Assembly (NCBI RefSeq): GCF_964204645.1
Contig: NC_134027.1
Span: forward strand, 20,236,560-20,300,559
Length of the DNA stretch: 64,000 nt
Direction: 5' to 3'
Source: Tubulanus polymorphus
Taxonomy: Eukaryota; Animalia; Nemertea
Below the pieces are notes generated by a model, which made no database searches, was not told where the DNA came from, and saw only the letters and a program-made list of their open reading frames with translations. Within the stretch, counting starts at the first letter, position 1. Every line of letters begins with the position of its first letter. The position numbers were made by a program, and so were the translations under genes. Shown here piece after piece: positions 22,320 through 49,729 of this stretch.

Positions 22320-23331
22320 TGTTCTCGAGAAGTGGCAGCTGGTTCGCACTAGAGTCTAGGGACACCGGAGTCCATCAGATTCATAGCGATTATTAGAGCG
22401 TAATGATTTTACGAAATGTTTCACGAATCTTTTAGTACAACTTAATTCATAAGATAACAAACTTATTCACATTCAAAGTCGGTTTCAAGTCATTAGTGTT
22501 TCACGAATATTCGGGATTCGATTATAATGGTCGATTTTGGTCACTGGTGATTAAGAATAAGTCGTTACCCAGGGAGCCTTTTCAAGACTACAAATAATTA
22601 CCGCTAGGATATTAGCGCCATAGCGCCGAGTCTAGACGAAACGAATCATGATAGTACGTACGTGAAGTAACAAACGGAATCCGATATTACACCATAGCCC
22701 AGTGCGAAAATAAGAAGTTTTATTTCCATTCTGCAATGTCGAATCGACTGACTGATAGTTGTGCACCGGTACAAGGCTCTATAATCTCTTTAATCAATAT
22801 GTTCTGCCTGTTTTCCACAATTTGTGGACAATGAACCCTGAACAAAACAGGAAGTTTCGTCTGCTATTTTCGTTCGTTAGGAAATCTGTCTTTTACGAGA
22901 TGAAGTATTGTGGGTGTTTTTGGACGAATCCAGTATCGGCAGAAGATTCATACGCCATGTGTCTGTGTATTTCATCTCCCTGAAAGTCTTTTAGAAACCC
23001 CTGATCAAATAGATATTTAATCGATAATTGTGGGTTTTATTTCTTTTATTCCGAAGGACTTGTTTATGATGCAAATTGAAAGTGTGCATAACGAGAACAT
23101 GGAGATTTCAAGTTAATAGTCGGGTATTCCCAGCATGAGCGCATTCGTAACTGCATCGTAAAGTCATTTTCTATTACTCTAGAGACGGCGTCTGCGTACT
23201 GTAGGCTTGTGGTTACTTAGAGCGGAGATCGTGTTTCAATTGATATAATTGATATATTTCTGCCACACGTGCGTTCTAACTTTAACCGAAATCTCACCCG
23301 CGATTGAATATTTGTTTTTCGTGGTGGAATT

Positions 23332-24170
23332 ATGAATGTAACATTACTTGATTTGCGATCAGACCGTTTGCAATCGACTGGTACACAGCGTTCGACCAAT
23401 TTCATATTTCATCTTGTGTGGATTTTCGGTAGTATTTGCAACATATTTACGTATTATTTAGTTTGCCCTCACTAACACGCAATACCTGCCCTCATTAACT
23501 GCGTCCGATCTTATATATTTGAATATAATGTCAATGAAATTGCTGGGAAGGATCAGCTTGGCTTCGGGAACGGGCTTTGGTATCTACGTACGTCTGTTAC
23601 ACGACTTCTGAATTCATGTGTAAGTCTCTACTCGTTACGGCAAATATCGTTAAAACTCTCTACATGGACACGTGTATTTTCAGTCTCGGGAGAACGTTTG
23701 CCGTTTGGATGCTCTTAAAAACTGTAACAATTTTTACCAAACTACGCACTTTGATTTTATCAATTGCATACAATTTACTGTAATGACTAGGGGAAAATGC
23801 CATTTTTGTGATATCTATCCAGTACGTATATAGCCACGCTCTACATCGCTCCGTACTTCATAAACTTATCGTATGTAGTTGTGATAGCTATAGAACTAGT
23901 AGCAGCCAGACCGACCAAAGCCTCTTTTCGACGAATTCACGGAATACTCTTCCAACACAAGACAAGACCTATAAAAAATTTGGTTGTGATAACGTCTTTA
24001 TATATAATCCTTTCGATGCCTGCATTACTGATTAATGATCGATCAAGTTTGAAATGACCCGTCAACCCATGCGACAACTCATAAGCTTGACAACGTTGAT
24101 TATTGAAACATCAAACAATGCAATGAACTTCATCGTCTCAGCTTTAGGAAATTTCGAAATGAAATTAGGA
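23332..24170 (+). pseudogene. Class A (rhodopsin-like) GPCR pseudogene
   Basis: Starts MNVT; TM1 WIFGSICNIFT; TM2 LTASDLIYL; TM3 CKSLLVTANI...SLGRTFAVWMLLK; helix 8 SFRKFRNEI. Broken by stops and frameshifts. Paralogous to 37290-38291, including ~340 bp of upstream DNA. Confidence 0.75.
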
Positions 24171-26341: not shown

Positions 26342-27395
26342 TAAAACATGCCAAGCGCGCAGTCATTTATAGAAATATGTGAGTTGCTTTCAAGCGTGCA
26401 CGTGCTGCGAGCGTGGCGACGAACCATATCGTTCGGAATATTGTTGGATTTATTCCAAGACAACCACTTTCAGACTTATTCACAGTGCGTGTCAGTGTTC
26501 TTTCATCAGTTTTATTTTGTCGCAGAGTACCAGAGAAGCTATGCGTATAGTATCTCACTGCGAGAGACATCGAGTGTCACTCAAACGACAAATAATAGGC
26601 CGAAAGCCACCAGGCCAGTGAGATATTTTCCTCAACTCAAAATCTGCAGTTTCTTACGTATCATCTTGTCATTGTAAATCGTAGGATTCACGTATGTGAA
26701 ATGTGTAGAGAATCCCACAATCATAACGAAAAAATAATATGAAGTCCGAAAAAGTTTCATTGAGCTGTTTTATTTGATGTTTCTAATAGCCATCTTCAGA
26801 AATACTGCATCTTGTATGAAAATTCATGGGTAAAGTCAGTAAATTAACAAGTGAAGATGAAATTAGGAAGACACGATTGTGTACTTTTTATGTTGTTGGT
26901 ATTATGAATTGCGCAATAACGTATTTCCATAAATATCGATTATGATGATGATTTGTGTCATAAATTTTTATTTATTCATATAGAAACGCAACTATCATTG
27001 AAAATGATATAGCTGCAATATAACTTTACACTCGAATTACTGACGAACAATCATGCATCATCAAGTTTTGCTTATAATGTAATCTAAGTTATCGAACATT
27101 TTTCTCGCGAGGATAATAGATTGTAGTTAGCTACACTTTGTTTGATTCCATAATAGAATCCACCCATACAAGTTAATCGAAGAACCCCCACGCGTACACA
27201 ATCTGCACAGGTTATGTCGAGGAAAAACGGATCGAACGGTTCAGTGCCAAAAATACAGTTGGAATTCAATTATAGTCCTAGAAATCAAATCATTCCCAAA
27301 CTCTTGACTCTTTGAGTTTTCGTATGGGTAGCTTAACGTGGATCCGTAAAAATTGGTTTAAAACAATGCGTCTGATTTAAATCAACAACCGATCA

Positions 27396-28376
27396 TTATG
27401 TTCTTCCAGAGCGTAACAACAATTTCATTTGTTCTTTGAAGTTCTTACTGTATACATAATAAAATATACCGTTTACAGCTGAATTCAGGGCTTGAGAGAT
27501 ATCATTCAAGAGCAATATCGTCCAAGTCACAGACCAAGGATAATAAAGTCTCAGAATATTGTATAACATATCAGGGGAAACTGACACCATGAATAAAGAG
27601 GATGCGATAAATACCATTCTATGCGCCGTTCCATCTTGTTTATTTTGTTTAGTGTCTGTACTCGTCAGTTGGTTCCTATTTTTAGCGTGAATGTGTAATT
27701 TGATTATCATGATCAAATTCAAAAGTGGCACAAGAGCAAATGGCAAATATGTCGAGAAAATACTTTCTAACAAATACGAGTATTTGTGAGGATTTTGAAC
27801 TGTTTTGGCACCGAGGACAGAGAGGCCGTATGAACATGTCTTTTTCACATGCGCAACAATCCTGTCTTGCGCGCGATATGAAGATACTCCACACCATATC
27901 AGAATACAAACGGCTGAAAATGCATAACAATGTTTCAGATTCCAGTGTCTTTTAGCTTTAAGCGGAAAACAAATGTGAAATGCTCGATCGAACGCTACTA
28001 ATAATGTAAGACTGTTGCGAATGTATGAACCCCATTTTGAGATGATATTTCCCGCAATATAAAGCCCAGGAGCTCCCAAATCTCCGTCTAAATAAAATCC
28101 TGTTTTTCCATAGCGAATAAGTTTCAAAATCCAAACTAAATGGTTATAAATGATTATAGCGATGCAACAGACAATATCAAAAACAGCTAATAACAATAAG
28201 ATGAAATGTGAAGTCGCGGAATTATTCATTTTATGTAGTCGATAAAGTACAATCATAGTAACTGAGTTTGTTATGAGGCCAAACCATCCGATCGGTCCTA
28301 TCACAGTCGCTGCAACAAAATTCCAAACTACGCGATCGTGAGGGAGGCATTTCTTCACAACCGTGGCGTTTAACAT
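27396..28376 (-). CDS. Intronless class A GPCR (peptide-receptor-like / chemoreceptor-like), 326 aa
   Basis: Seven hydrophobic segments; N-terminal NAT sequon; TM1 GLITN, TM2 LAVFD, TM3 FDRAFHICFPLKA, TM5 LPF, TM6 SVSP, TM7 NSAVNGIFY, helix 8 SKNFKEQM. First ATG at 28376. Confidence 0.9.
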   Translation of the reverse strand: MLNATVVKKCLPHDRVVWNFVAATVIGPIGWFGLITNSVTMIVLYRLHKMNNSATSHFILLLLAVFDIVCCIAIIIYNHLVWILKLIRYGKTGFYLDGDLGAPGLYIAGNIISKWGSYIRNSLTLLVAFDRAFHICFPLKAKRHWNLKHCYAFSAVCILIWCGVSSYRAQDRIVAHVKKTCSYGLSVLGAKTVQNPHKYSYLLESIFSTYLPFALVPLLNLIMIIKLHIHAKNRNQLTSTDTKQNKQDGTAHRMVFIASSLFMVSVSPDMLYNILRLYYPWSVTWTILLLNDISQALNSAVNGIFYYVYSKNFKEQMKLLLRSGRT

Positions 28377-28724
28377 ACTGCATACAAAGTGTGTGATGGT
28401 AAAGAAGTATCGGTTGACGCTGCGCACAAGTCGAATCGCATCAGAAGACCACACCTTCGATTCTGGAATATTTTTGCGTAGCAAGAAAATTACATAGTTG
28501 AAACACTGTATCGTTGAATAACATACATTAGACAGCAGTGCTTCCAGTGAGGCAAATTCACAAGTTCATATAACATTATTTGATCGAAGTCACCTGGAAT
28601 ACGAAATATTTTCTTCGTATTTTACAAAATCCGAGGTCATCGCCGAAATGAATCTAATATATTAGATTAATCATTTCGCCGATGACCTTGGACGCACGAA
28701 AAACGAGTAATCATCAAATATGTT

Positions 28725-28795
28725 CATCGAGTGCAACAACAATTTCATCTGTTCTTTGGAGTTTTTACTTAAAACAGTAGAATATACCATGAAAT
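28725..28795 (-). pseudogene. Remnant of the 3' end of a paralog of the 27396-28376 GPCR
   Basis: Translates SKNSKEQMKLLLHS versus SKNFKEQMKLLLRS; DNA AACAACAATTTCATCTGTTCTTTG matches 27415-27438. Confidence 0.65.
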
Positions 28796-29284
28796 ATGTG
28801 TATGACAATGTCAAAATGTGTACAAGTCTGGATTTTTTCCCTTCTTTCACATACATTGTTCTTTATTTTCAAACGATCTCGAAACGTTCCTCGATAGCCA
28901 TATGCAACTGCATACTCGATAAGACGATAACCTTAAACCATCTGGTGTTACTTAACGCCCTGACCATACAGTGATGTTCGTTGATAATCCTATTATCTTA
29001 CTCTTCAAACAAGAGCTTTTCTAGAACTAAAATACATCTATATGAAGTAAATCATGCAAAGTTTATTTCAGTGGTCTGACACCAAAGTTTTCTTGGCTTA
29101 AAAAATTAAAAATAAATTCTCACACGCTCGAATTTATTTTTATTTTTCACTCACTCAACCTTTCAACCTCTGATATGAAACAACACTTACCCTATTACTC
29201 TAATAATATTCATATATATGAACATTATATAAATGAATATCATATTAATGAAATCAATTTTAATTAAAAAAATATGTATAATAA

Positions 29285-29626
29285 ATGGAAAGTAAACAAA
29301 CACACGGTGAATTCTTAGATAGAATCAAAGATACTACAAATGTCAAATCTGTAGATTATAGATTCAAAAAGTTAACAGAATTAACATTACATAAGAAATA
29401 TTTAATTACAAATATTGAAACAATTACTAATAGATATGGTAATAAATCAGTTATTCACTTAGAATATGAAGGATTAAAAGGAAATGAATATAAATTTAGA
29501 ACATATTTACCAGATAGATTTCATAGATTATCTAGTGACGATAAAGAAAAAGTGTGTTCTGGTGATTTCTATTTCATATGTAAAGGTAAGAATGAAAAAG
29601 GATGTCATGATATAGATTTCGAATAA
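29285..29626 (+). CDS. Small viral protein, 113 aa, possibly OB-fold/ssDNA-binding
   Basis: Intact ORF starting at TAAATG. Beta-strand-like pattern FKKLTELTLHKKYLITNIETITNRYG...FRTYLPDRF resembles small proteins I recall from invertebrate Polintons. Function is inference. Confidence 0.6.
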   Translation: MESKQTHGEFLDRIKDTTNVKSVDYRFKKLTELTLHKKYLITNIETITNRYGNKSVIHLEYEGLKGNEYKFRTYLPDRFHRLSSDDKEKVCSGDFYFICKGKNEKGCHDIDFE

Positions 29627-29643
29627 AAAAATACATAAAATAA

Positions 29644-30080
29644 ATGCAAGATAAATTAAAAGAATATAGTATATTTGTTGATTCAAGAAGACTTACATAT
29701 TATATATCTCATAATTTATTGATACAACTAGATAGAGAATTTAGAAGTTGTGTTGATTTAAAATTAGTAGATATTAGCTTATGTAACTCATTTTACAATA
29801 TATCGAATAAAACTATTGAACATGGAGCCTTTTTAATTTTTAATAAAAATGAAAATGAATGGTTCTATACAAATTTAAAACTAAGGTTATATAATTTAGA
29901 AACATTATCACAAGAAATTAATAGAAAAGCCTGGCACAAATTAGGTAGTCATTCCGGGTTTAACCATTAGATTATTAAAAGTGATAGTTCTGATAAAATA
30001 AAGATAAGGTTATCCCATAGTGAAAAACATATAAATTTATCTTAAAAAAACCTATAGCTAAACTGTTAGGAATTCCACCA
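29644..30080 (+). pseudogene. Minor capsid (penton)-like protein, truncated
   Basis: LKLVDISLCNSFYNIS...LYNLETLSQEIN and, after a frameshift, PIAKLLGI: the YNIS / Y..L...IN / LLG pattern typical of Polinton/PLV single jelly-roll pentons. C-terminal half missing. Confidence 0.5.
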
Positions 30081-30098
30081 AATTTTTTTAATAAATAA

Positions 30099-30330
30099 AT
30101 GAGTGATAATAAGTAGATAATAACTGGTTTATATAATGGAGCATTACTATCAGTGGGAACGGTTGGTTATACAATGTTATTGAAGAAAGTATTCAAAATG
30201 GGAAATATTAATGTTGATAGATTTGATATCAATGATATTCTAAAATTAACATTAGCAGTAACTTTATCTTATTTAACAATTGATTATTTGGAAAAACAAA
30301 AATATTCCTCCTATGAACGCATAATTTTTG
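30099..30330 (+). pseudogene. Small two-helix hydrophobic viral protein
   Basis: TAAATG start; MSDNK*IITGLYNGALLSVGTVGYTMLLKKVF...ILKLTLAVTLSYLTIDYLEKQK; one in-frame stop. Confidence 0.55.
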
Positions 30331-30338
30331 TTAAATAA

Positions 30339-30682
30339 ATGGCTTCTGCATAACTATTATAGGATCGGCAATTGTTAACGATTTAGCATTTACAGGTGGT
30401 GGTTATTTATTTAAGCATATTGATAAAATGGTTCATTATCAGACAAAATTATATGGATTATATAAACAAAGAATTATACAATCAGAAAATTTCACATAGA
30501 GATTTTCAATCAGTCGATGATGCTATGAGTTTATATAACGCAGTAACAAATAAAGAAAAATTACATCTATATAAACCTACAATATCAGATAATTATTCCC
30601 CAAGTAATGAACAACAAAAATATGAAATAATTTGGATTTAACTGTTATTGTTATATTTGTAGCATATAAATTTACAAATTAA
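30339..30682 (+). pseudogene. Small viral membrane protein
   Basis: TAAATG start; IIGSAIVNDLAFTGGGYLF...DYINKELYNQKISHRDFQSVDDAMSLY...PTISDNYSPSNEQQKYEII followed by a hydrophobic tail; frameshifted. Confidence 0.55.
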
Positions 30683-30708
30683 TTATATATTATTTTTTTG
30701 TTAAATAA

Positions 30709-31129
30709 ATGGATGATAAAGTTGATAATATTGATATTATTCCTCAGGATATAAATAAAACTAAATTAAAATTATATCTAGAAAAACAAATATTAGAATT
30801 TGAAAATGACTTAAAGATAAAAAAGAAAATATATTGAAAATCTAGAACTATATATTATTTATTATAAGTGGTTCAGTTACAATTAGTTCTGTAATAACAT
30901 TTTTAGCAATATTCAGTCCATAAACACCTTTAGCTATATCAATTGGCGTGCTAGGTTTAATTTCAAGTGTTTTAACTGGTATAAGCTCAAAATTGAATAT
31001 AAAAAGTAATAAAGAAAAATAAAATCTAATATAAAAGAAATTAATAAATTAAAAAATAGATTAGATTATATAATTAGTTTGAATGGAAATATTACAACTG
31101 AAGAACAAGATAAATTATTAAAAGAATGA
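30709..31129 (+). pseudogene. Viral coiled-coil / two-TM protein
   Basis: TAAATG start; charged helix, then ISGSVTISSVITFLAIFSP*TPLAISIGVLGLISSVLTGIS, then a charged helix ending GNITTEEQDKLLKE. Confidence 0.55.
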
Positions 31130-31157
31130 ATAAATTATTAATTTTTTTATTATATAA

Positions 31158-32492
31158 ATGGTAGATAGTTTTCCAAAAGCTTTCCAATATAATAGATTAA
31201 TTAAATATAACATTCCAGCAATAGATTTTAATAAAAATATTTACATACAAAAATAAAGTTTTAAATTCATTAATTAATTTAGATATTTATGTTTCTGAAA
31301 CTAATAATTTCAATGTAAAGATGGAAAATATTTTTCATGTATACTTAATTATTTTTAAAAAATTGAAAGATGAAAAACGATGGTTATTAAAATCTAATAT
31401 GAAGTAATGAAGTATTGGCAGAACCAATTACATTATGCAGTTTATTGTGCAACAACAGGATGTGGAATTAGTTGGAATGATCATTTAAATAAATCAAAAT
31501 ATTATAAATCCAAAGTTTATTTAGATTTCATACATACTTTCAAATAAGATTAATATTAAATAAATTAGAGTGTCTAGATATTTTAAAGAATTAGATAACA
31601 ATATTAATTTGTCAAGGTTTTATAAAGTTTGTAATGAATATAATATAAATATGAATAATTCTGATTTTCGAACAAAAATTGGAACAATAAGATCACTTCC
31701 TTGTCCTGAAAATATTTTACAATATTGCACACTTTTCATACCATCTAATAGTTTTTATTATATCTATAATAATAAATTAGGTTATGGTAAAATAGAAAAT
31801 ATGGATTTAAAAACATTAAATTCCAATAAATTACCGAAATTTTATGACAATTTAAAACAAGAAAACAATAATGGTTGGGTTTATTTCATTTTAGAAAATA
31901 GTGAAGGTTTTACAAAATCAGGTATACAAAGAATAAATCAATCTATAAGAATATAGTTGATTTGTATATTAGGATCATAGGTTGAAACAAGATCCCCAAT
32001 AATTGGAAATTTAAATACATCATTTGATACACAAAAACAATTCACAGTATTATTTGAAGATTATATTCATAATGATAAAAACAGATCGATTCCAGAAATC
32101 ATTGTAAGATATCAAAATTATTTAGATAAATCTCATGTAAGATTAAATTATTGTATAGGTCCTAATTTATTAATTATTTCTGATGATTTAATATTAAAAA
32201 TGGGAAATATAATTGGTTATAATAATTTGATTAAAACTGCAACAATAAATAATTCATTTGGATTAAATGATATATATATATATAAAAATTATGACTGCTC
32301 CAAAACTAATGGAAGGTGAAAACATTTAAAAAAATATTCAATCAACTGAAACTAAAACAAAGAATATTAAATCGAAAAATGATTTTAGAATAAATATTAC
32401 AATACATCAGAAAATATAAAAACTGAAAATACTAAATTAGCTATAACTTGTATAGGTATGATAAAGGAGGAATATTATATTTCAAATTTTGA
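31158..32492 (+). pseudogene. Conserved viral protein of unknown function (W.NQL..A.YCATTGCG family) with C-terminal hydrophobic tail
   Basis: TAAATG start; YWQNQLHYAVYCATTGCGISW, SEGFTKSGIQRINQSI, CILGS*VETRSPIIG, IIGYNNLI. I recall these motifs from uncharacterised proteins of invertebrate endogenous DNA-virus elements; not verified by search. Confidence 0.55.
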
Positions 32493-32508
32493 TTTTTATA
32501 AGATATAA

Positions 32509-34250
32509 ATGGATGTAGAAGGTGGATAAGATATTCCAATGGATACTTTTGATGAACCCGCTATTACCGATGAACAACAACCTGATTTTAATTAAACTAA
32601 TACTGATAATGATAATGAAACAGCATATAATTCTAATCTAAATAATGATGATGGATATGATGATGATTTTAGTGGATATAGTGATTATGAAGAATATAAA
32701 GATGATATTGAAACAAATGAAAAATTAATAGATAATTTTAAAGCTCCCGATAGGAAAGTAATTAAAACTAAAAAAGAAAGAAAACATTTAATTAATAGAT
32801 TTAAAAAAACAGATAATCCTATATTGAAAAAATATTTATTAATCATAAAACATAGTGTAACAAATACAGTTATTGATGAAATATTACCAAAAGATGTAAC
32901 ATATAACATTGAACCAGACGATATTTCAGAACAAATTAGAAAAGGTGATCAATTTTTCATGTCTAATTTATAGTTTAAAAATGATTCATAGTTTATAACC
33001 TTGAATTAAATGATAAACTTGTATGAATAAAATTATCTAAAATGGGGCAAGAAGATCTGTTCCATCCTGGAATGTTAGCAAGATCTTCAATTGAAAAATC
33101 AAAAGGTGGTTCAAAATTTATCAGAATTATATGGAATGCACTCGAAAGAGTAAATGAAGAAGAACCAATTGAGAATATTTATATTAACAAATATTCACCA
33201 TTTAAAAATCCAAATTCAAATCCTTTTAATGTTGATCCAGAAATGAAAGAGTATGGAGATCGATTAGATAAATTATGAACTTCAACACCAGAAACATCGA
33301 GAAGAGACACTCAACCAATTAGTAATGATTCAAGTCAATTAGAAGTAGTATTAGAAAAAACAAATTGAAAGACCAAATAATTCAGAAGAACAGATAAATG
33401 GTACTTTAGATACATCTGATACTGTAACCGGAACAAATCAAATGCAACTTGAATTGGAAGGATTTCTTGATTTAACTGAAGAAGAATTAAAAATATTTCC
33501 TGAACAAACACGATGAGAAATTAAAGGTGTGCAAAAATCAGCTGATTAAATTGCGCACGATAAAAGTATAAGAGATTTTAAGATTAAAACTTTAAAAAAA
33601 AGAATTATCTGAATCAAATGAAGAATTAAACATTTAAAATCTCATTTAGATCATCAATTAATTGATTAAATTGAATATAGACAAAAAGAATTATGTTTAG
33701 AAAAAGAAATTGATGATTTAAAATATAATTTAGAATTACAGAAAGAAGAAAAAAAAACTATTATTAAAATCATATATGATTATTGTATTAATAGATTAAA
33801 AGTTATTATTAAAGATTTAATGATAAAACCAAATTCTAAAGTATCATTGAAAGAATGAATAAAATTATTATCTAAATTAGAATGTATCACAATTCTTTCA
33901 ATTCTAACAGCTGTAACTAATGATATTTACAACAATAGGTTTAGCTATATCAAATTCATTAAAAGCTACACCAAATCCTAATAAACCAGATAAACCACCA
34001 AATGATAATAATCTATACAAGATAAAGTTAAGGATGGTTTAAAAGAATTAGCAAAATATCTATGGGAACTATCTAAAGAATCTGCCGCAGCTTGACCTGG
34101 ATTTATAGCATCAATTGTTGGTTTTGTTTTAAAATCTGCTGGAAATATTATTAGTTTTGCCGCAGAACATATAATTTTATTTCTAATAACAGCTGTTAGT
34201 GCTACTATTTTGGACTAGTAAACATGATAAAAGATAAACAAGTAATAATT
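32509..34250 (+). pseudogene. Large viral protein: acidic N-terminus, coiled coil, hydrophobic C-terminal helices
   Basis: TAAATG start; MDVEGG*DIPMDTFDE...; C-terminus ITILSILTAV...KVKDGLKELAKYLWELSKESAAA*PGFIASIVGFVLKSAGNIISFAAEHIILFLI; multiple lesions. Confidence 0.55.
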
Positions 34251-34265
34251 ATTTTTCTTAAATAA

Positions 34266-35474
34266 ATGGGTGGGAGTTATATAAATCCTTCTAAGAATTG
34301 TAGAATATCTAATGCAATTTAAGCAGAGAGATCTCATCATATGATTACTCATAATCCTTCTAATATTAATCCCGATGAAACTTTATATGTTAGAATTCCT
34401 CGATTAACATAAAATACTTTTTATGTTTTAAATAGTATTTATTTATCAGCTGATATAAAAGTAACTGGTAATAATCATAATTATGTCGTAGATAATGTTG
34501 GAAGATATTTAATTAGAAAATTAATTATAAAGATTGGACCAGAAACAGTTTTTTTCATTAGATGATTATAATTTATTTACGCATTGTAATGATTTATGGT
34601 TAACAAAAGAAAATAGAAATAATATGATATTTCAAGGCATCCAATCAGAAAAACAAAATAAATTAAGACCAGAAGCTAATAATTGATTAAAACGATTTAT
34701 GGAAGCAAATATAAAATTCCATTAGACTTCGAATTGATAAATAGTAATGCGCCTTTATATAAATATGCTATTCAAGAAGATATTATATTCGAAATAACAA
34801 TTGCTCCTGTTAATGAAATTGTATTATATAGCGTTGATAAAGATATGGATTATAAATTATCAAATAAATGTTTAGAATATGACACAGTAACTAATGAAAA
34901 TATTGCTAACACAATTCAAACTAAATACAATCAAGGATTTTCATTATTCTATGATTATATTGATAAATTTAAAACTGTAACGATTAATGCAAATGATGAA
35001 ATAATTGATGAGAATATTAACTTCCCAAGAAGATCTATTAAAGGTATATTAATACTTTTTACCATTGCAACATATTCTAATGGTGCAATTAAAGTTGATA
35101 ATTATTATAATCCTGAAATATCAAAAGTAGAAATAAATAACTATCGAAGGAATAGCAAATAAAATATTTTGTCAGGGAATGAGAATGATTGATCAATGGG
35201 TTAAATTAAAAAATATTTTATGAATGGAAAAATAAAATCATCTGAAGATTGTAATATTAATCAAATTGATTACAATACCGGCAATAAATATACAGTATGG
35301 TTAGATTTTAGGACGAAAGAGGATAAATTATACATGGTTCTGGGAAAAAAATTGCAAAATACAAAAGATGAAATACAATTATTTATGAAAAAGAAAAAAG
35401 GAGGTTTAAATTATAAAATGCATATTTATATCATATCTGACGCGCAATTAAATATTATATTATTAGTTTTCTAA
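34266..35474 (+). pseudogene. Major capsid protein (double jelly-roll-like) of the Polinton-like element
   Basis: TAAATG start; ITHNPSNINPDETLYVRIP, VVDNVGRYLIRKLIIKIG, DLWLTKENRNNMIFQGI, YGSKYKIPLDFELI, YKLSNKCLEYDTV, NINFPRRSIKGILILF, VWLDFRT. About 400 codons, beta-rich; motif order as in PLV-type capsids. Confidence 0.7.
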
Positions 35475-35842
35475 CACAATTAATCGTGTTAAATGTTTTA
35501 TCAATTAATTTATTTGAAACGAATATAATTTCAGACTGTTGATATTCTGAATGTATTATGTAATGTAGTCTTTTATTTTGTAATTAGATGATACAATTAT
35601 TTCTATTTATTATACAAATATCTTATTAAATTTGTGTTTATTTTTTGTTTTTATTCATATTTAGTTCATTAGGAATGAATTCATTAAATCTTATTTTCAG
35701 TCCTGCTAGTTGATTCAACAAAATATAATCATCGAATCTTATTTTCAGTCTTACTCCTTACTACATTCAAAATTAATTATTTAAATCTTATTTTAGGTCC
35801 TATAATCTAATGCACTAAAATTGAATTTATCAAATCTTATTT

Positions 35843-36156
35843 TTATTCAAATCTATAATATGATATCCGTTTTTATCTTTACCTAAGTATGTTGAATAAA
35901 ACTCACCTGAACATAAATCTTCAACATCTTTTAATAATTTATTGAAGCTATTTAGTAAATAAGTTTAAATTTCTATTTAGTAAATAAGTTTAATTTTCTT
36001 CTTTAAACCATCAAACATATTTTTGATAAATATATATGTTAGTTCATTTGATTTCTTATACTTATTTTCTGTAATTCTAGCAGCAGTTGTATCGTTTATT
36101 CTCTGAAGAAAGCTATTTTGGTTATGCGATTGTTTGTTGTCTTTATTTCCTACCAT
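35843..36156 (-). pseudogene. Diverged inverted paralog of the 29285-29626 gene
   Basis: TAAATG start on minus strand; KQSHNQNSFLQRINDTT...YKKSNELT...DGLK...LCSGEFYSTYLGKDKNGYHIID aligns with KQTHGEFLDRIKDTT...FKKLTELT...EGLK...VCSGDFYFICKGKNEKGCHDID. Confidence 0.7.
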
Positions 36157-37289
36157 TTAATTACTAAATCTTTGTTAAATTCAAAATTATTCTACATACA
36201 CAAATTACAATTATACGTATTAGTAAAGGTGGGCTTTCATATCAGAGGTTGAAGTCGGGAAAAATAAAAACATCAAAATAGTGAAATATATAGCTATGTT
36301 ATCATTTGTTTATCGAGAAAAAAATCATATTTTTCTATAGATGAATCAATAGCAGAAATTATGAATTATTTAACCATTTGAATATTTTGATACCTTTGGT
36401 ATAAAAACCCACACCATTAACCTGCTCATTTGACCGGTGGCGAATAAAATGATAAATTTCTCGAGATTTCGGGGAATTTTTTCAAAAGTCCTGCCACTTT
36501 TCAGTGTTCGGGCATCTCAACGATTGTAAGACAGCTCTACTGCATGCCAGTAGTGCAGTTAGAGCAGCCACCTTGGACTAGCCCGTTATCTAGCGGACAA
36601 TTAAGTCAGTAACTCAGTCACGCCTGAGGTGACATTGCCCACATTTCTAGGTTTTCATCGTCACTCCCACGTGACCAGGCCAAGGTTTTAAGCTCAATGA
36701 ATCACCAAGACAACGCCAAGATTTTTTTGCTTGCTTAATATGGTGAAAAACCTAATCATTGAGATTTGAAGTTAATTCTCAAATTAATTTTTCCTTACTG
36801 ACGCAAGAAGCATAAACTCAGTTTCAAAACCTGCAACCATTCTTTATTAAGAACAGGATCATGACTGATCACTTTGTATAGTTGATCGGCATCAGCGTAC
36901 ATCAGCTTTACGAGTCTGTATATTTCATTCCCCCGAAATTGAGATTGATAGAAACTCCTGACGAAATAGATATTCATTTGATAATTGCGGATTTTATTTA
37001 TATCATTCGCAAGTGTTGTTTATAATAGAATGATCAAAATGAAAATGGATATTTCGAGGACGATTTCATTCAAATCAAGTAAATAGTCGAGGATTCCAAA
37101 ATCTAGCATTAGATTCATAACTGCATCGTTTGATAAAGTTATTTTTCATTACTCGAGAGAACCTCTGCATTTTCCTTAAATTGAACCGGAGTTCGTATAT
37201 CAATTACTGCGTCATTATGTTTCTGGCATACGTGCGTTTTAACTTAGATCGAAATCTTTCGAATTGGAATATTTTTTGGTGGTAGAATT

Positions 37290-38291
37290 ATGAATCTAAC
37301 ATCACTGCAATTGCCATCGGGAGTGTTGGCAATCGACTGTCGAGTATATGTTCAATTTCATAGTTTATCCCTTATGGATTTTCGGTAGAATGGGCAATAT
37401 ATTTACGTTAGTTTTACTCAGTCTATTGCACCATGAATTAGACCTCGTTGTCATTGGCTGCGTCCGATCTCATATATTTGAATACAACGTCACTGAAAAG
37501 GATTAGCTTGGCTTCGGGAACGGGCTTTGGTATCTACGTCTTTTACACTTCTGAATTAATTTGTAAGTTTCTACTCGTTACGGCAAATATTTCGTGTATT
37601 TGAAGTCTAGAGAGAACGTTTGCCGTTTGGATGCCCTTAAGGGCAGCTATATCTCTTACCAAACCACGGCGTCGCACTTTGATTGTATCTCAATGGATCA
37701 TCGTCATAGCGGTAGAGGGTGCCATGTCCAATTTATTTGGCATTCGTGTCACGAATGGACAGCAGAAGAACTACATACTTCTTTTTGTAAAAACTGAAGA
37801 GGATGCCATTTTGCGATATTTATTATGATGTACATAACAGCGACGCTCTACACCGTTCCATATCTTATGAACTTCTCGTGTATTGTTTTTATAGCTATAA
37901 GACTGGTATAAGACCTGGACAGCTTCTTCGACAAATTCACAGAATACCATTTCAAAACAAGATAAAACTTGCTTAAGAAATCTGATGACGATAGCGTAAT
38001 TCTCTCGATGCCTAACAATTTGGTCAATGCACTGAATACGGATCCGTCAATTTTGACATGGCCACGTCAACCCCACATGCGTCAACTCATAACCTTGACA
38101 TCGTCGACACTTGAAACAATGCAATTAACTGCATTGTCTATTTCTTCAGCTTTAGGAAATTTCGAACTGAAATAAGGAACATTTTTAGACATTTCGCGAG
38201 TTCAAAAGAAAAGCAAGACAAACGAAGGATGACGTTTAAAAAAATTCAAATATATATTTTACAAGTCTCATCCGTAACAGGGAAGGTTTAA
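37290..38291 (+). pseudogene. Class A GPCR pseudogene
   Basis: MNLTS start; TM1 WIFGRMGNIFTLVLL; TM2 LAASDLIYL; TM3 ICKFLLVTANI...LERTFAVWMPLRA; helix 8 VYFFSFRKFRTEIR; several frameshifts. Confidence 0.78.
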
Positions 38292-39167
38292 AGAGGCAAA
38301 GTGCAGGGGTCATTATGGTAGTATTGAGGACTAGTGTTTAAGCGTGCATGACGTAAACATTAATGAATAAGATACTTTGTATAATAAACTTCTATGAATC
38401 ATAAACAACTCGAATTTTGTAGACATATGATATTTAGCGTATATAAATATAGAGAGAAAACGGTCGAAAACTATCGATAGGCAAATTAAATCGATTGCAC
38501 TTTCAAGAATATACATACATTTTTAGTTATACATTGGGGTAACACCAGGCGTTGGTTGGAATCAAATGGGAGCCGTTGATAAAATGTAAAGGTCCCACAA
38601 TCATATTGTCTAAAAAGTTGATAAAAATAATGGTATAGTGATACTACCTCTTCGTCTTAAATGTTTCTATATGTCCAATAAACCTTTTAGTAGTGGGACT
38701 TAAACGTTTTAGCACTGCATCATCGAGATATTGCAATTCACAGGGATTCAGCAGCTGTCAGTATTAGAAGACTCTTTTCATATACACTTTTATGATACAT
38801 TCTATGTACAGATTAATTGCAATGATCGATAATATTGAACGATGAAGACAACGGTATTCAATTTCCCTTATCTATAAAGCCTATCACACTGCAGCTATCA
38901 GCTAAGAAAAGAGTAGAGAACTTTTAATCCAGCTGATAGTGTGCTACAGGTAATCATGGAAAGTACTATTTAGATGACGTGTACCCTTAAAGTCCAAACA
39001 GTTGTCTCAAAAATCTAAAAAAAATTATGGTCTTGTTAGATTCACGACTGTGCAACTGGGCCCAGGTCAGTACCAGAAAATTAAATATCGACAGAGCTTG
39101 AGTTCCATTTTCGGTGTGATAAATGAATCGATCGATTTTCATCCATCGTAAGTTCCTCTCTCTCTTT

Positions 39168-41423: not shown

Positions 41424-42348
41424 TTTAGCAAGGAGTATTTTTATCTGGAACTGCGGATTGTGTTTTTATGCTTAAATATTGTAATCAATATTTTGCCAGG
41501 TCATTTGTAGCTAAGAAAACATATTTGTAGATTTTTCCTATGTCCATTAATGGATCTAACCCTTAGTCTTTGTCACTTTTACCCGGTTACCGTCTTGTTT
41601 ATTGAGTATTTTGTCTACCTAGCGAACTGGCACTATTTTCGAATAAGTGATGTAATAGCAATATAAACAACTCTCAACTCACCTGCCCTCGCAACTAGTT
41701 TAGCTCTCATCAGGTAATTAGTGTCTTAATATGTCATTAAGATTTGGATGAACCAATCGCTAGAAGTTTTGGTCACTAATTTCTTGATGGGAGTGTCTGA
41801 ATCAACTTGGTTTTTGGCAGCACAGATTTGATCACTCTGTGCCTGCTATCCAACTGATTAAGACGTAAAATAAACTGGTATTAACACATAAATTCAATCG
41901 TTTGAATTTTCAGGTGAGTTACATCCATTTTTCATAGTTAAATCTTATATATGTTTTGGCATAAATGTGTACCTAGGCTTGGCTGAGAAATCAGACCTTT
42001 ATGTAACACGTACATTTGGTACTGAGAGTCAATTTTTATAGATTAGGTATTTAATCTAAAATGACGGCTAATGATTATTTGTTTGTAGAAATAGGCCTTT
42101 GTATTAAGTATGTAGTTAAAGAAAAGTCATTGTAGGACAATCTCAGTTACGATCTGATGAAGTATGAGTAATCAAGTAGTATAATATTCGATTCTATTCT
42201 GTGTATACTGTAACTAATTATCATAACACTCTGTGCCTGCTATCCAACTGATTAAGACGTAAAATAAACTGGTATTAACACATAAATTCAATCGTTTGAA
42301 TTTTCAGTTTTTGTAAAATTGGCAACGCGCAAAAAGTCCGTTGCTAAA
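41424..42348 (+). repeat. LTR 1 (925 bp)
   Basis: TTTAGCAA...TTGCTAAA; repeated at 48742 and 56060; followed by the PBS. Confidence 0.92.
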
Positions 42349-42349
42349 A

Positions 42350-42359
42350 TGGTGGAGAA
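42350..42359 (+). promoter_or_regulatory. Primer binding site, tRNA-Ala-like (also at 49668-49677)
   Basis: TGGTGGAGAA begins 1 nt after the LTR end and is complementary to the ...UUCUCCACCA 3' end found in eukaryotic tRNA-Ala. Confidence 0.65.
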
Positions 42360-42411
42360 CCCGTTGCTAAAATGGTGAGAACCCTTTAACGATTTCCGAA
42401 ACCTCTCGCAA

Positions 42412-43548
42412 ATGAATCCTCGCTCGGTAGCACAAAACAACGGCAGGATAACAAGATCGACGACTTCGAGGAACGATCCTCTCTGGAATTTGGCTGTACC
42501 GAGCTCTCCGGTACGTCTGCAGCCCGTCGATATACGTGTGCACAGCACGGACAATCAGGAAGCGCACGCGTTAGTACGGGGCGAACAAAGCAATATGCCG
42601 AAAGTTAGTTTGGATTATTTTGGCGTCGGGTATGGTACCAATGTACCAGCCTGGTTGGATCGTTTCGACCAATATCTCAGGCTGAACAACGTACCAGCGG
42701 AGAAACACGTCGATGTGTTTTTGTATCATTTAGGGCACCATGCGGCCAATATCAAGAACAGCCTTCCGGTGGCCGACCAACTTGATATCAATAAGTTAAA
42801 GACGGCACTGAAAGAGCGCTTTCAGCCGTTGGAGGACCAGTTGCTTACGACCAATATTATGCAAGCGCAAAACGAGTCGGTGAACGATTATCTTAACCGT
42901 ATCGATATTCTCGCGTCACAATCGTCACTGACCCCGCAACAAATCGTTTCGCGGGCAATACAAGGGTTACAGCCACGAATTGCGGCGACTGTAGCTGGCC
43001 ATTTGCCCGATAGCATGCCGAAACTGCGAAAAATCGCCCTGACCGTCGAAAACTCAAGCAATTTCGTGCCGTTATCTACACCTGTTGTAGCCGCTGCTTC
43101 AACTTCAACGGATGCTGCTGTGGAGAAATTGCAGGCTCTTACAACCGTCATCGCCGAGCAGTTTCAACAGAATTTGAAAGACACCTCTGCTATGTTATCG
43201 AACCGATTTGATGATGCGATGGAAACCCTCAGATCGGAGGTATGCGCCATTGATACTCGACACATACGTCACCAAGACCGTCCGTCGTTCGACCGCGAAC
43301 AATACCGCCCACGACATTGGGCTCCTGACCACCGTCGCCAACCAAGATTTAGTCGCGGGAGAGGCCAACCAAGAGGCAGTTACAGAAATTCGTCACAGAC
43401 CCAGAACCGAAATTTCGGTTCAAGTAAGTGTATAAGGTGTTTTAAGCCAGATTGTGAATCAGAAGATTCTTGTTATGCCAAATCATTAGAATGTCGTAAC
43501 TGCCATAGAATAGGTCATGTCGTGCGTGCATGCCCCGATAGAAGATAG
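42412..43548 (+). CDS. gag: Gag, copy 1
   Basis: 378 aa; capsid-like region with Q...ESVNDY motif; CCHC knuckle CRNCHRIGHVVRAC. Confidence 0.92.
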   Translation: MNPRSVAQNNGRITRSTTSRNDPLWNLAVPSSPVRLQPVDIRVHSTDNQEAHALVRGEQSNMPKVSLDYFGVGYGTNVPAWLDRFDQYLRLNNVPAEKHVDVFLYHLGHHAANIKNSLPVADQLDINKLKTALKERFQPLEDQLLTTNIMQAQNESVNDYLNRIDILASQSSLTPQQIVSRAIQGLQPRIAATVAGHLPDSMPKLRKIALTVENSSNFVPLSTPVVAAASTSTDAAVEKLQALTTVIAEQFQQNLKDTSAMLSNRFDDAMETLRSEVCAIDTRHIRHQDRPSFDREQYRPRHWAPDHRRQPRFSRGRGQPRGSYRNSSQTQNRNFGSSKCIRCFKPDCESEDSCYAKSLECRNCHRIGHVVRACPDRR

Positions 43549-46500
43549 GGGTGCGCGCCTGTCCCGGTTCAAAGTACTCAGGACGGGCACCCACAGGTTC
43601 AACTTAAGGCTACCTTGGAACGCAATTTGACTACCATTTTTATAGGTGGTCATCGTGTCAAAGGTTTGCTAGATACCGGAGCACACATTTCGTGTATATC
43701 CAAACAATGCCTAAATAGGACTAAGTTTGCACATAGTAGGTTACATAAGTCCGATATCAAAGAAGTTGTCGGTGTGGGTGGGCATCTGATTCCTGTCTTA
43801 GGGACCATAGAACTGCCCTTGACTTTTCCCGATGTCGCTACTCCGGTCATACATACTTTTCATGTCTTTGAGAAACTCCATCAACAGCTAATTCTGGGCA
43901 TCGACTTTATGGATCAGAAAAAGGTCGATATTTTCTATTCTGATCAATGTTTTACTATGAAGGAATGTGCTCCTCAAAAACCATTACTTCTGGAAGTTCA
44001 CTCGGTTATAGCTAGGTCATCTGTTAAAACGAAATTACCCCCCAGGTCAGAATTAAATATTCCCGTTAGGATTCCTAAACGCGTAGGTAACGAGCTCGTT
44101 CTACTATCACCTCTAGATGAGCTTGCTTTCAAGAATTTTTCCGGCGCAAAATGCCTGGTTCACATTCGAAATGGTAACGCTACAATGCGGCTCATAAACC
44201 CAACCAATAAATCCATCTCCATCAGGAATAACCAACCTCTCGCCTCTGTCTCTGAACTGGATAATTCAGTACCGATTTCGTCACTTGATGAAAAAGACTC
44301 CGACCCATCTCCGGTCAATTATAACTCGGTCAACAACATGAGCTTACCCTCTGAATATACACACGACACGGCAGATACGTTGAAATTTCATACAAAAGCG
44401 CCGCCCCCTCCGCAGGAGAAGATTGAGTTTGATTTATCTCAGTCAGACATTTCTGAAGAGCAAAAGCAGGTCTTACAAAATTTCTTACATCAGAACAGGG
44501 ACAGGTTCTCCACTAACTTACATGAACTAGGATTCTCGAATATTCAACAACATCGAATTGATACAGGTGATCACCCGCCTGTGAATTCTCGCCCGTACCG
44601 CCAAAACGCCACCGTGCGAAATGAACAGAATAGACAAATCGGCGAAATGCTTAAAACTGACATTATCACTCCATCTAACTCTCCATTCCAATCCCCGGTA
44701 GTCATGGTCAAGAAGAAAAATGGGGAATACCGATTTGCTGTCGACTATCGCTAGTTAAATGAAATAACGAAGCCCATGGCTTACCCATTGCCCAGAATCG
44801 CAGATGTGATTGACTCTGTGGGAGAATCTCAGGCAAAGCTTTTTACCACGCTTGACTTAAAAAGTGGCTTCTGGCAGATCAAACTAGATCCTACTACAGC
44901 CCATAAGACAACTTTTGTAACACAGAATGGGGCGTATATGTTCAAACGCCTCCCGTTTGGTTTGAAAAACTCACCCATGACATTTCAGATGACTATGAAC
45001 GAAGTTCTTAGGGGCTTTCATTGGAAATTTGCTCTTGTATACATTGACGACATTCTCATTTATAGCAGCTCATTTGAAGAACACTTGGAACATTTACAAC
45101 TTATTTTTGATAGATTGAGAGAAGTCAAGCTAACCCTGCAACCTGAGAAGTGTAAGTTTGCAGTCAGCTCAGCCACTTATCTAGGTTTCATCTTCACCAA
45201 AGAGGGAGTGAAGGCTGATCCAAGCAAATGTGAGGCCATAAATTCTTTCCCTGAACCTAAGTGTCGAAAGGACCTCCGGGCTTTCTTAGGTTTATGCAAT
45301 TTCTATCGGCGTTTTGTTAAGGATTTCTCTCATGTATCTACAAAATTGACTCCTCTTTTGAAAAAGGATGCCAAATTTATCTGGACTGACGAACATCGAC
45401 AAGCCTTTAACCAATTAAAATCCAATCTGATATCACCCCCTATCCTGGTCTATCCTGATAATAACCGTCATTATTTCTTGTCAACCGATGCGTCAGACAC
45501 TGCTGTAGGTTATATATTGGGTCAGTTCGATGAAGAAGGCCGAGAGAGGGTCATCGCCTATGGGGGTCGCTCTCTGTCTACTCCCCAAAGAAATTGGCCT
45601 ACCCGAGACAAAGAGGGTCTAGCCATTGTTCTCGGTATAGATTCGTATCGTGAATATCTATCGGACAGGGAGTTTACCATTTTCACCGATCATATGTCCT
45701 TGACCCAACTTCTTAAGGCTAAGGATACATCACAACGTGTTACCAGGTGGGCGACAAAGTTACAAGCTTATCAATTCACCATTGTCCATCGACCGGGTAA
45801 GCAGAATTCCAATGCCGATGGGGTGTCCCGACGAGATTACCCTCCCATTGAAGATGACAGCGATCATGACGATTTTCCCGCCCCACTTGGGGCCATTCTA
45901 CCGTCAACTCGGTCAGACGTTTCAGTCTCTGCTAGTCGCATAGGTGAAGGCCTATCCAGCCACCCTAATGTTACTCCGAATGTTACTCCAAATGATGATT
46001 CGATAAGAACCTGGTTGGAGACGGAACTAATGTATGAACAGGATTTACCCCCTGCAGTTTCGTCCCTTCAAGATGTAGATTTCCGGTCAAAACAATGCAG
46101 CTCTCCAACTTATGGACCCATGATTGCTTTCCTTGAGAATGGTACCTTACCCTCAGATCCAAAACTGGCTAAATGGATAACAGCTGCAGAACACCTATTT
46201 CATATGTATGACGGTATTTTGTATCGTGATTTTCGAAGCAAAAAGGAAAAGTTGGCCAGTGTCGTCGCTCAAATCGTCGTCCCGGAAGACCTTCAGTTGC
46301 ATATCTTGGTAGCTTATCATGATTGTTGTGCTGGGGGTGGCCACGCAGGTATCCAAAAAACATATGACGCTATCAAAACCAAATATTTTTGGCGAAATAT
46401 GTATCGGGATGTGGTCCAATATGTGCAGTCTTGCGTGTCTTGTCAGCAATCAAAGGTTAATCCACACGCAAAACCCCCTCATCTGACAAATCTGCCCATT

Positions 46501-47735
46501 GAGGACACATTCGGGCGTTGGCATATCGACTTCCTGGGGCCACTTCCTGAGGGAAAAAATGGCGAGAAACATATTTTGCTCGTAGCTGATAGCTTTTCGC
46601 GCTGGCCCGAAGCATTTGCATTAAAATCACAAGAGGCATCAGAAGTGGCAAAGGTTTTATATAATGAAATTTTTGCCCGATACGGTGCTCCGAGGTCACT
46701 TGTTTCAGATCGTGGAAAATGTTTTCTCGCTAAACTAGTTTTATCTATCTGCGAAATGTTTCAAGTTAAAAGATATCACACATCTGCTTACCACCCCAAA
46801 CAAATGCATCCTGTGAGCGCACTAATAGGTCAATTGCTCAGATTTTTCGTTCCTATATAAGCGAGGACCAGACTGAATGGCCCGATATACTATCTAGTGT
46901 TCTCATGGCTCTACGTGCTTCCCCATCGTCTCACACGACTGGCTTTTCTCCATTTCATGTCTTATTCGGAACGGATATGTCACTACCTATTGACACTACT
47001 CTAATTCCGAAAGAGAATTTGGCTAAAACTGTGCAGGAACACATTGCACGCAAGCAAAGGCATTTGAAAGTAGTCAAAGAAATCGCTACTCAGCAAACTG
47101 AAAAGCACCAGTTACGCAACAAAGAACTCCATGATAAGCATGCCTCGACACCAGATTACCAAGTCGGTCAAAAAGTTTGGTTGTTGCGTAAGCACACTAA
47201 GAAAGGAAAGTCTAAGAAATTCATGCCCAAATTTACAGGCCCATATAAAATTATAGCGTTAGGTAAAAATTTTACCTACTTTCTCAGATGTTGTCGAACA
47301 AACAAAGACCTGCCTTCAGCGGTGAATGCTTCCCGCCTCAGTACTTTTGTAGACCGGGCTGATTACCCGCATCTACTACCTCAGCTCGAGAATGAGAGTA
47401 CACATGACGACTCGGTAACGGATTCTCAAGTCATGCACCCTCAAAGATCAGTTACACCTGACATTCAGGACAATGAAACAGACACAGCATTTGATGCTAC
47501 AAGACAGTCCCTGCAAGAGCCGACCACTGATAAGACTTTCTTTCCAATTGATAAGATTTTAAAGATGCGTACTAGATCTGGCATTATAGAATTCTACGTA
47601 AAATGGTCCAGTAAATCTCCAAATTCTTGGCAACCCTCTGATAATCTTACCCAGGCGGCCAAGGACGAGTTCTTCCGTACCCACACGAGACAGGGTAAAA
47701 CGCGAAAACGAAGGTCCTGTTTCAAGAGATCATAA
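43549..47735 (+). pseudogene. pol: Pol (PR-RT-RNaseH-IN-chromodomain-like), copy 1, with a premature stop and a frameshift
   Basis: LLDTGA; FAVDYR*LN (TAG 44752-44754); LDLKSGFWQ; YIDD; TDASD; HHCC; DFLGP...SDRG; 1-bp frameshift near 46798 in the expected YHPxTNASCER; GPY/F motif KFTGPYKI. Confidence 0.92.
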
Positions 47736-48730: not shown

Positions 48731-48741
48731 GTGTGGGAGAG
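48731..48741 (+). promoter_or_regulatory. Polypurine tract (also at 56049-56059)
   Basis: GTGTGGGAGAG directly abuts the downstream LTR. Confidence 0.65.
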
Positions 48742-49666: not shown

Positions 49667-49729
49667 ATGGTGGAGAACCCGTTGCTAAAATGGTGAGAAC
49701 CCTTTAACGATTTCCGAAACCTCTCGCAA

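What the first reader, a model, noticed from the sequence alone, without database searches (positions are those of the whole stretch)
29162..36253. Endogenous Polinton-like virus relic rich in membrane proteins and lacking visible replication, packaging or integration genes
Seen: a 7.1-kb extremely AT-rich block between 19-bp inverted repeats, with nine decayed or intact intronless genes: capsid-like, penton-like, five with hydrophobic helices, and two terminal paralogs. I found no pPolB, retroviral integrase, A32 ATPase or adenain motifs. Known: canonical animal Polintons are ~15-20 kb and carry those genes; the capsid here does not read like the usual animal Polinton capsid. Inference: a divergent, possibly membrane-containing PLV lineage, present as an internally deleted copy or as a structural-only segment mobilised in trans.
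Basis: partly seen in the sequence, partly recalled or inferred. Interest (0 to 1): 0.78.

Follow-up and report, generated by a model that had tools for sequence, protein, structure and literature searches.

The report
Broken Polinton with poxvirus-style promoters
This is a decayed, cut-down copy of an abundant virus-like jumping element of an already described sea-anemone Polinton type; close relatives carry the packaging and integration genes it lacks, and its genes start at poxvirus-style promoter-like motifs, which suggests the family may borrow the transcription machinery of an unidentified large virus.

Summary
The block is real, but it is neither a new capsid lineage nor a structural-only segment. 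Eight + strand genes match, in order, the left half of an intact 11.5-kb metagenome contig (74-80% nucleotide identity). That contig continues with an rve integrase and an A32 ATPase. An intact relative of the capsid folds as a double jelly-roll and, by eye, matches the published Polinton-3_NV capsid, a PgVV-related clade that also lacks the protease. Reads show a highly repeated family. The right end of this copy lies in one unique contig, so the 7-kb form is a one-off deletion product. The repeated sequence starts at a 49-nt hairpin at 29101, outside the 19-bp repeat; no target-site duplication was found. What remains unusual: 9 of 9 window genes and 52 of 70 genes in related loci start at TAAATG, often after a T-run and short spacer. 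This is the vaccinia late-promoter layout, and I found no paper reporting it for Polintons. It points to transcription by a poxvirus-type helper, untested. Four genes have predicted membrane helices; an internal membrane is not shown.

The parts
29101..36270 (.). Whole remnant of a Polinton-3_NV-type element (revised ends; the right end is approximate)
   Evidence: Summed contig depth rises from 41 to thousands at 29101; GC 0.227; colinear with L001
29101..29149 (.). Imperfect palindrome with a 10-nt loop, at the edge of the repeated sequence
   Evidence: DNA fold -10 kcal/mol, z -6.9, 0 of 200 shuffles as stable; opposite-strand joint 29101/29153 in all 3 runs
29162..29198 (+). Left sub-terminal inverted repeat (19 bp perfect, 37 bp at 78%)
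29285..29626 (+). ORF1, 113 aa, intact; possible phi29-type single-stranded DNA-binding protein (lead only)
   Evidence: 34% to L001 ORF1; nearest Pfam-bearing Atlas cluster of the L001 homologue is Phi29_Phage_SSB, score 0.87, on 44% of members
29644..30057 (+). Penton-like (minor capsid) gene, N-terminal half only, broken
   Evidence: E 2e-26 to a profile of 6 intact homologues, positions 1-136; homologues follow the Polinton PX alignment pattern by eye; not folded
30099..30338 (+). ORF4, small conserved moderately hydrophobic protein, broken by a stop
   Evidence: 92.5% to L001 ORF4; peak hydropathy 1.15
30339..30676 (+). ORF5, predicted membrane protein with hydrophobic helices at both ends, frameshifted
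30709..31138 (+). ORF6, predicted membrane protein, broken
31158..32490 (+). ORF7, about 440 aa, C-terminal membrane helix, globular domain with no fold match, broken
   Evidence: 50% to L001 ORF7; 1321 homologues; model pLDDT 83; no Foldseek or VIA match
32509..34215 (+). ORF8, long protein with three C-terminal hydrophobic segments, broken
   Evidence: 43-45% over the C-terminal part to L001, L003, L005
34266..35474 (+). Major capsid protein, double jelly-roll, Polinton-3_NV type, broken by stops and frameshifts
   Evidence: 61% to P0004 read with X, 118 of 150 in the longest open stretch; fold of P0004
35661..35848 (.). 49-bp tandem repeats of unknown origin in the right-end module
   Evidence: no penton match
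35830..36156 (-). Paralogue of ORF1 pointing inward, broken, with a 25-bp tandem duplication
   Evidence: 36% over 113 aa, E 3e-14
36217..36270 (-). Right sub-terminal inverted repeat plus an A-rich match to the inner hairpin arm

Best explanation
The block is a decayed remnant of a highly repeated, integrating Polinton whose capsid appears to be of the Polinton-3_NV type; it likely lost its integrase, packaging-ATPase and polymerase region by deletion, and its family likely relies on a poxvirus-type virus for transcription. Shown: gene order, capsid fold of an intact relative, integrase and ATPase in close relatives, many diverged copies in the host, a unique right end, and a conserved T-run/spacer/TAAATG start motif. 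Inferred: full-length members (about 14-17 kb) integrate with the rve integrase, package DNA with the A32 ATPase into a double jelly-roll capsid without an adenain protease, and use the membrane proteins in assembly or entry. Inferred with less support (about 45%): the motif is read by a cytoplasmic poxvirus-type RNA polymerase, so the family multiplies as a virophage-like passenger and rests in the germline between infections. This copy is not expected to do any of this by itself.
For: Colinearity and 74-80% nucleotide identity with L001. Pfam rve E 1.5e-10, Chromo, Pox_A32 E 4.6e-11 and dNK in L001; rve in L003. AlphaFold2 pLDDT 87, pTM 0.87; Foldseek top hits PBCV-1 and iridovirus capsids, E about 1e-14. 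44 of 70 identical residues in four hand-picked blocks against the printed P3_NV capsid. Polinton-3, N1, N1A and N1B_NV are 14.4-16.6 kb and lack the protease. 5,701 contigs of run X1 lie on 12.5 kb, most 90-99% alike; one unbranched 1,145-bp contig at host depth covers 35426-36570. TAAATG at 52 of 70 ORF starts against 150 of 2,555 ATGs. T-run plus spacer in 33 of 57 starts against 10 of 82 other TAAATG; the TAA is an upstream stop in only 1 of 57. The vaccinia late promoter is described as T residues, a 5-7 bp spacer, then TAAAT(G/A) (PMC5294985).
Against: No tree with named reference capsids: the P3_NV match is by eye. No host assembly, so no full-length copy in this host was seen and the time of the deletion is unknown. 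The closest loci (L001, L003, L005) end before any polymerase; the polymerase-like ORFs in L006 and L025 were recognised by recalled motifs only, with no supporting Pfam, PHROGs or PDB hit. The motif is absent from L014, L015, L016 and L018 (0 of 11 starts). The loci are not independent (L002/L003 and L011/L012 are near-identical pairs). No helper virus and no transcript were seen. A short AT-rich motif could serve another NCLDV polymerase or host Pol II. No target-site duplication.
Confidence: 0.68

Rival explanations
1. Same element, but an ordinary nuclear Polinton: the start motif is a compact promoter or translation context read by host Pol II, or a leftover from an ancestral helper.
For: Coral polintoviruses are reported as expressed (PMC11131425 abstract). 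The motif is missing in 4 more distant loci. No helper was found.
Against: Fixed spacing (T at -12 in 95% of 57 starts against 32% of 82 controls). It precedes integrase, ATPase, kinase and capsid genes alike, also in 33-44% GC loci. T at -3 is a poor Kozak context (recalled).
Confidence: 0.3
2. A structural-only segment or non-autonomous 7-kb unit that is copied and moved in trans.
For: Both ends carry inward-pointing paralogues and a perfect 19-bp repeat. Non-autonomous-named Polinton-N1_NV elements exist in this clade.
Against: The right-end module has summed depth about 250 in X1, against 2,800-145,000 across the rest, and lies in one unbranched single-copy contig. Relatives keep integrase and ATPase next to the capsid. 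This copy also lacks half the penton and ORF3.
Confidence: 0.07
3. A chimera: the left 6.4 kb of one element joined tail-to-tail to the terminal module of a second, diverged family member, so the 'TIRs' come from two elements.
For: The arms are only about 70% alike (71% over 163 nt), while most laid contigs of the family are 90% or more alike; the right module is rare.
Against: Beyond the paralogue the right module does not resemble the penton gene that follows ORF1 on the left. A genuine right end could be this diverged, and the 19 bp are still perfect.
Confidence: 0.25
4. Contaminant or misassembly.
For: The left junction is bridged by only 29 letters on the element side. Run X1 may be the assembly's own sample.
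Against: The right junction is spanned in X1 (0 differences) and in X2 and X3 of a second sample (36211-36551, 2 differences). The genes are decayed as host insertions are.
Confidence: 0.03

Closest known systems
Polinton-3_NV and Polinton-N1/N1A/N1B_NV of Nematostella vectensis (PMC4028283 Table S1, Figs S2-S3; PMC11296320)
   Same: Capsid of about 412-415 aa with matching blocks (by eye); ATPase present in relatives; no adenain protease seen; animal host
   Different: This copy is a broken 7.2-kb remnant against 14.4-16.6 kb. A penton was not detected in Polinton-3_NV. The passages read say nothing on promoters or membrane genes.
Gezel-14T / PgVV (Aquintoviricetes; 10.1101/2022.07.28.501842)
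   Same: Related capsid type (via P3_NV); depends on a large virus for transcription and shares its promoter motif
   Different: Algal host, tyrosine recombinase and TVpol, mimivirus early motif. Here: rve integrase in relatives and a poxvirus-late-type motif, helper unknown.
Entomopoxvirus-associated PLVs AHEV_PLV2, CBEV_PLV1, Ca_PLV1 (PMC11296320)
   Same: Animal PLVs proposed as poxvirus parasites; the AHEV_PLV2 and Ca_PLV1 capsids branch next to the P3_NV clade
   Different: They encode a cysteine protease, have no rve integrase and were found in occlusion bodies (Ca_PLV1 integrated). The paper has 0 occurrences of 'promoter'.
Canonical Mavericks / adintoviruses (Polintoviricetes; PMC8502044)
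   Same: rve integrase, A32 ATPase, penton, inverted repeats, membrane-active accessory genes
   Different: Different capsid lineage; adenain not seen here; no target-site duplication found at this copy.

Membership tests
Polinton-3_NV / N1_NV clade | Capsid of the P3_NV type (double jelly-roll, outside the Maverick capsid lineage) | tested here: met
   Fold; 44 of 70 identities in four hand-picked blocks, by eye
Polinton-3_NV / N1_NV clade | Phylogenetic nesting with the named reference capsids | not testable with these tools
   No reference sequence could be fetched; the tree holds only 77 unnamed rows (quick method)
Polinton-3_NV / N1_NV clade | ATPase present, protease absent | tested here: inconclusive
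   Pox_A32 in L001; no protease hit among 15 L001 ORFs plus the capsid, but the contig is incomplete
Canonical Maverick/Polinton (Polintoviricetes) | Maverick-lineage capsid | tested here: not met
   0 of 76 aligned capsids hit a Polinton DJR family at E 0.1, 26 hit Capsid_N weakly; P3_NV capsids are placed outside the mavpol lineage
Canonical Maverick/Polinton (Polintoviricetes) | rve integrase | tested here: met
   In close relatives L001 and L003; absent from this copy
Canonical Maverick/Polinton (Polintoviricetes) | Protein-primed family B polymerase | tested here: inconclusive
   Absent from this copy; polymerase-like motifs (recalled) in L006 and L025 without library support
Canonical Maverick/Polinton (Polintoviricetes) | Terminal inverted repeats flanked by a 5-6 bp target-site duplication (recalled) | tested here: not met
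Helper-dependent PLV / virophage | Genes carry the promoter motif of a large DNA virus | tested here: met
   Vaccinia-late layout at gene starts; sequence match only, no function shown
Helper-dependent PLV / virophage | A helper virus is identified and needed for expression | not testable with these tools
   No RNA holder listed; no host assembly
Internal-membrane jelly-roll virus | Lipid membrane inside the capsid | not testable with these tools
   Four predicted membrane proteins; ORF7 matches no known fold; no virions

The most novel reading that the evidence does not exclude
The Polinton-3_NV capsid family, with more than 1,800 clusters at 50% identity, includes germline-integrating virophages of poxvirus-type viruses in invertebrates. 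Their genes are wired for poxvirus late transcription, their genome ends meet in hairpin or palindromic junctions, and their particles carry a conserved set of membrane proteins, one with an unknown fold.
Probability: 0.4. Interest if true: 0.82.

Novelty: new member of a known kind. Interest (0 to 1): 0.47.

Why it matters
The copy itself is a dead insertion. The family signal matters more: how animal Polintons are switched on, and whether they parasitise larger viruses as mavirus and Gezel-14T do in protists, is open. A fixed poxvirus-late-type motif at almost every gene start names the kind of helper to look for and gives a simple molecular test (transcript 5' ends). It also predicts poxvirus-type viruses in invertebrate hosts where none was seen here. 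ORF7 is a widespread membrane-anchored protein with a confident model and no fold match.

Tried and rejected
No whole genome is held, so intact copies and partner segments in the host could not be searched. IMG/VR scans with the window capsid fragment, A1, A2, A4 and a 27-nt end motif gave no relative. GTDB gave nothing with A2 and two short contigs in MAG records with A1. Pfam on 14 window fragments of the element gave nothing at a curated cut-off. Sequence search of the PDB with capsid, penton and polymerase-like queries found nothing significant. The ORF7 model had 0 BFVD matches at E 0.001 and a best VIA Z of 4.6 (rmsd 3.2, 93 aligned); this shows neither that the fold is new nor that it differs. 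Rejected: that the right module continues as a second penton (no profile hit; nucleotide score 59 against 55 +/- 8 in shuffles); that TAAATG is stop-start coupling (1 of 57); that the element interrupts the neighbouring GPCR; a hairpin at the right end (z 0.7). No RNA holder listed. Runs X2 and X3 do not cover 35674-36090 or most of 28594-29063; a hole proves nothing. The penton was not folded (both jobs went to the capsid and ORF7). The capsid tree is the quick version, without named references, and the window row includes out-of-frame stretches. Earlier-findings look-ups by place, by sequence and by 8 words were empty.
Full report
Observation. The block has GC 0.227 against 0.379 and 0.421 in the flanks. 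The 19-bp inverted repeat is real: 2 matches, 0.05 expected. Three-frame translation shows eight + strand genes and one - strand gene, and 9 of 9 start at TAAATG. Only ORF1 is whole. The neighbouring intronless Srw-type GPCR and the Gypsy-like ORFs place the window in an invertebrate animal. No assembly is held.

Capsid. The gene at 34266, read with X at stops, found 126 proteins among 1,476 candidates, the best 61% identical over 415 aa. A profile of 76 of them found 3,369 clusters at E 0.001 and 1,863 at 1e-10. The intact relative P0004 gave a confident model (pLDDT 87, pTM 0.87). Its top Foldseek hits are PBCV-1 and iridovirus capsids in the PDB and NCLDV capsids in BFVD. Pfam gave only weak Capsid_N hits (26 of 76). 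The printed Polinton-3_NV capsid (PMC4028283 Fig. S3) matches the window protein by eye at 11 of 18, 10 of 18, 9 of 14 and 14 of 20 residues. I picked these four blocks as the best conserved, so they overstate mean identity. That paper links the P3_NV capsid to PgVV. Its Table S1 lists Polinton-3, N1, N1A and N1B_NV at 14.4-16.6 kb, with ATPase and without protease. PMC11296320 places P3_NV and N1A_NV outside the Maverick capsid lineage. So the odd capsid and the missing adenain are traits of a described clade.

Gene content of relatives. A metagenome scan gave 23 loci from 240 candidates. L001 (11,483 bp, 20% GC) has the window's gene order and 74-80% nucleotide identity in six of seven blocks (83% in a 52-nt seventh). 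After the capsid it continues with an rve-plus-chromodomain integrase, a Pox_A32 ATPase and a deoxynucleoside kinase. L003 has an rve hit too, and L002, L003 and L005 carry similar integrase and ATPase ORFs in another orientation. None of these matches the 64-kb window. The window also lacks L001 ORF3 and the second half of the penton. The penton call rests on homology plus a by-eye match to the published PX alignment, not on a fold. A polymerase next to the closest relatives was not seen. L006 and L025 hold polymerase-like ORFs by recalled motifs only, with no library support. A 16,883-bp contig is on record for both the capsid cluster and the penton of L001, but it could not be read.

Reads. 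Three runs were listed, from two samples of one study; X1 may be the assembly's source. On 26500-39000, 5,701 contigs of X1 were laid, 712/1,678/2,323/988 at 99+/95-99/90-95/under 90% identity. Summed depth is 41-58 in most host bins and 2,800-145,000 over 29.0-35.7 kb; the tool warns that this is no copy number, but the contrast shows a highly repeated family. The bin 35674-36090 has 254. One unbranched contig at depth 45.7 with 0 differences runs from 35426 to 36570, through the capsid end, the right module and the host flank. So this 7-kb arrangement is unique, not an amplified unit. X2 and X3 also span the right junction. The left junction is covered to 29129 only.

Ends. High depth begins at 29101, not 29162. 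29101-29149 folds into a hairpin (z -6.9). All three runs show an opposite-strand joint at 29101/29153 at single-copy depth. Contigs that extend past 29101 (8 in X2, agreement 0.64; 3 in X3, agreement 0.98) continue, by eye, with an inverted copy of the sub-terminal motif. In some copies the hairpin is therefore the centre of a palindromic junction. This fits a circle or tandem junction, or a replicated hairpin end; contigs cannot tell these apart, and the tables were cut. No target-site duplication was found. The right module is an ORF1 paralogue (36%) followed by 49-bp repeats. It is either the diverged true right end or a piece of a second element.

Start motif. Among L001-L018, 52 of 70 ORFs of 110 aa or more begin at TAAATG, against 150 of 2,555 ATGs overall; L019-L023 were left out. 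L014, L015, L016 and L018 contributed 0 of 11. In the 14 loci L001-L013 and L017 (L014-L016 and L018-L023 left out), 33 of 57 such starts have a run of four or more T ending 4-9 nt upstream, against 10 of 82 other TAAATG (p 2e-8). T stands at -12 in 95% against 32%, and the TAA is an upstream stop in 1 of 57. In the window 6 of 9 starts have the T-run. Some loci are near-duplicates, so the p-values are too small. PMC5294985 describes this layout for vaccinia late promoters, and salmon gill poxvirus genes are annotated with TAAATG. Shared promoter motifs mark helper dependence in Gezel-14T, Sputnik and mavirus. Searches for polinton with TAAATG, TAAAT, poxvirus-late or promoter terms listed no paper on this motif in animal Polintons; most subscription papers and Repbase reports are outside the library. 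An unchecked AI note from another genome (e1-8580207) proposes the same idea; it is not independent support, and I had noted the motif before seeing it.

Membrane proteins. In the intact L001 homologues, ORF5, ORF6, ORF7 and ORF8 have segments above 1.6 on a 19-residue hydropathy window; ORF4 does not. ORF7 has 1,321 homologues, a confident model of residues 1-350 plus a C-terminal helix, and no fold match. Adintoviruses already have described membrane-active accessory proteins, so these genes may serve entry or egress and need not imply an internal membrane. ORF1 may be a phi29-type single-stranded DNA-binding protein; the Atlas score of 0.87 makes this a lead only.

Mechanism. Shown: a decayed remnant of a highly repeated family whose close relatives carry integrase and ATPase beside the same structural genes. 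Inferred: it inserted as, or descends from, a longer element and lost the right half. Less certain: the family is transcribed by a poxvirus-type helper (about 45%), against host Pol II or a vestigial motif (about 30%) or another large-virus polymerase.

Papers seen. PMC11296320: abstract, part 1 of 4 of Results, section 8, passages. PMC4028283: passages, supplements 1 and 4, part 1 of 2 of supplement 3. PMC11131425: abstract, sections 6 and 8. 10.64898/2026.06.19.733378: passages and section 7; it notes that some Octocorallia, Hydrozoa and Bivalvia ATPases group with Aquintoviruses. PMC4642659, PMC4542343, PMC5294985, PMC8502044, 10.1101/2025.04.19.649669 and 10.1101/2022.07.28.501842: passages. 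10.64898/2026.10.13.758929: abstract and outline. Supplements of the preprints are closed and those of PMC11296320 and PMC11131425 were not read; they may already hold elements of this family. The Kozak context, polymerase motifs and Maverick target-site length are recalled.

Verdict. The element is a new, broken member of a known but thinly described clade. The promoter signature, the palindromic junction and ORF7 are what deserve follow-up. Interest 0.47.

Noticed in passing
window 41424-56984: Two head-to-tail Gypsy-like LTR elements, 100% identical over 8,243 nt and sharing a 925-nt repeat; each has in-frame TAG stops between gag, protease and RT regions. Very recent tandem insertion or assembly duplication.
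   Followed up: partly
window 27396-28565 (-) and 28719-28788: Intronless Srw-type GPCR ORF (Pfam E 1.2e-10) with a short 81%-identical duplicate of its 3' end nearby.
   Followed up: partly
window 28630-28692: Strong isolated hairpin, -22.4 kcal/mol, z -7.6; possibly a small foldback element.
   Followed up: no
window 36914-38178 and 22961-24170: An old repeat pair, about 69-70% identical.
   Followed up: no
window 59297-63028: A further Gypsy-like pol ORF of 1,243 aa, different from the tandem pair.
   Followed up: no
L001 10340-10981 (-): A deoxynucleoside kinase (Pfam dNK E 1.7e-31) inside the related element, with the same start motif.
   Followed up: partly
window 29002-35673, runs X1 against X2/X3: The element-to-flank depth ratio is roughly ten times higher or more in X1 than in X2/X3. 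It could reflect copy number, free replicating DNA or contig summing; not resolvable from contigs.
   Followed up: no
L024, L025: Capsid relatives on short contigs inside bacterial and archaeal MAG records; probably binned eukaryote-derived DNA.
   Followed up: no
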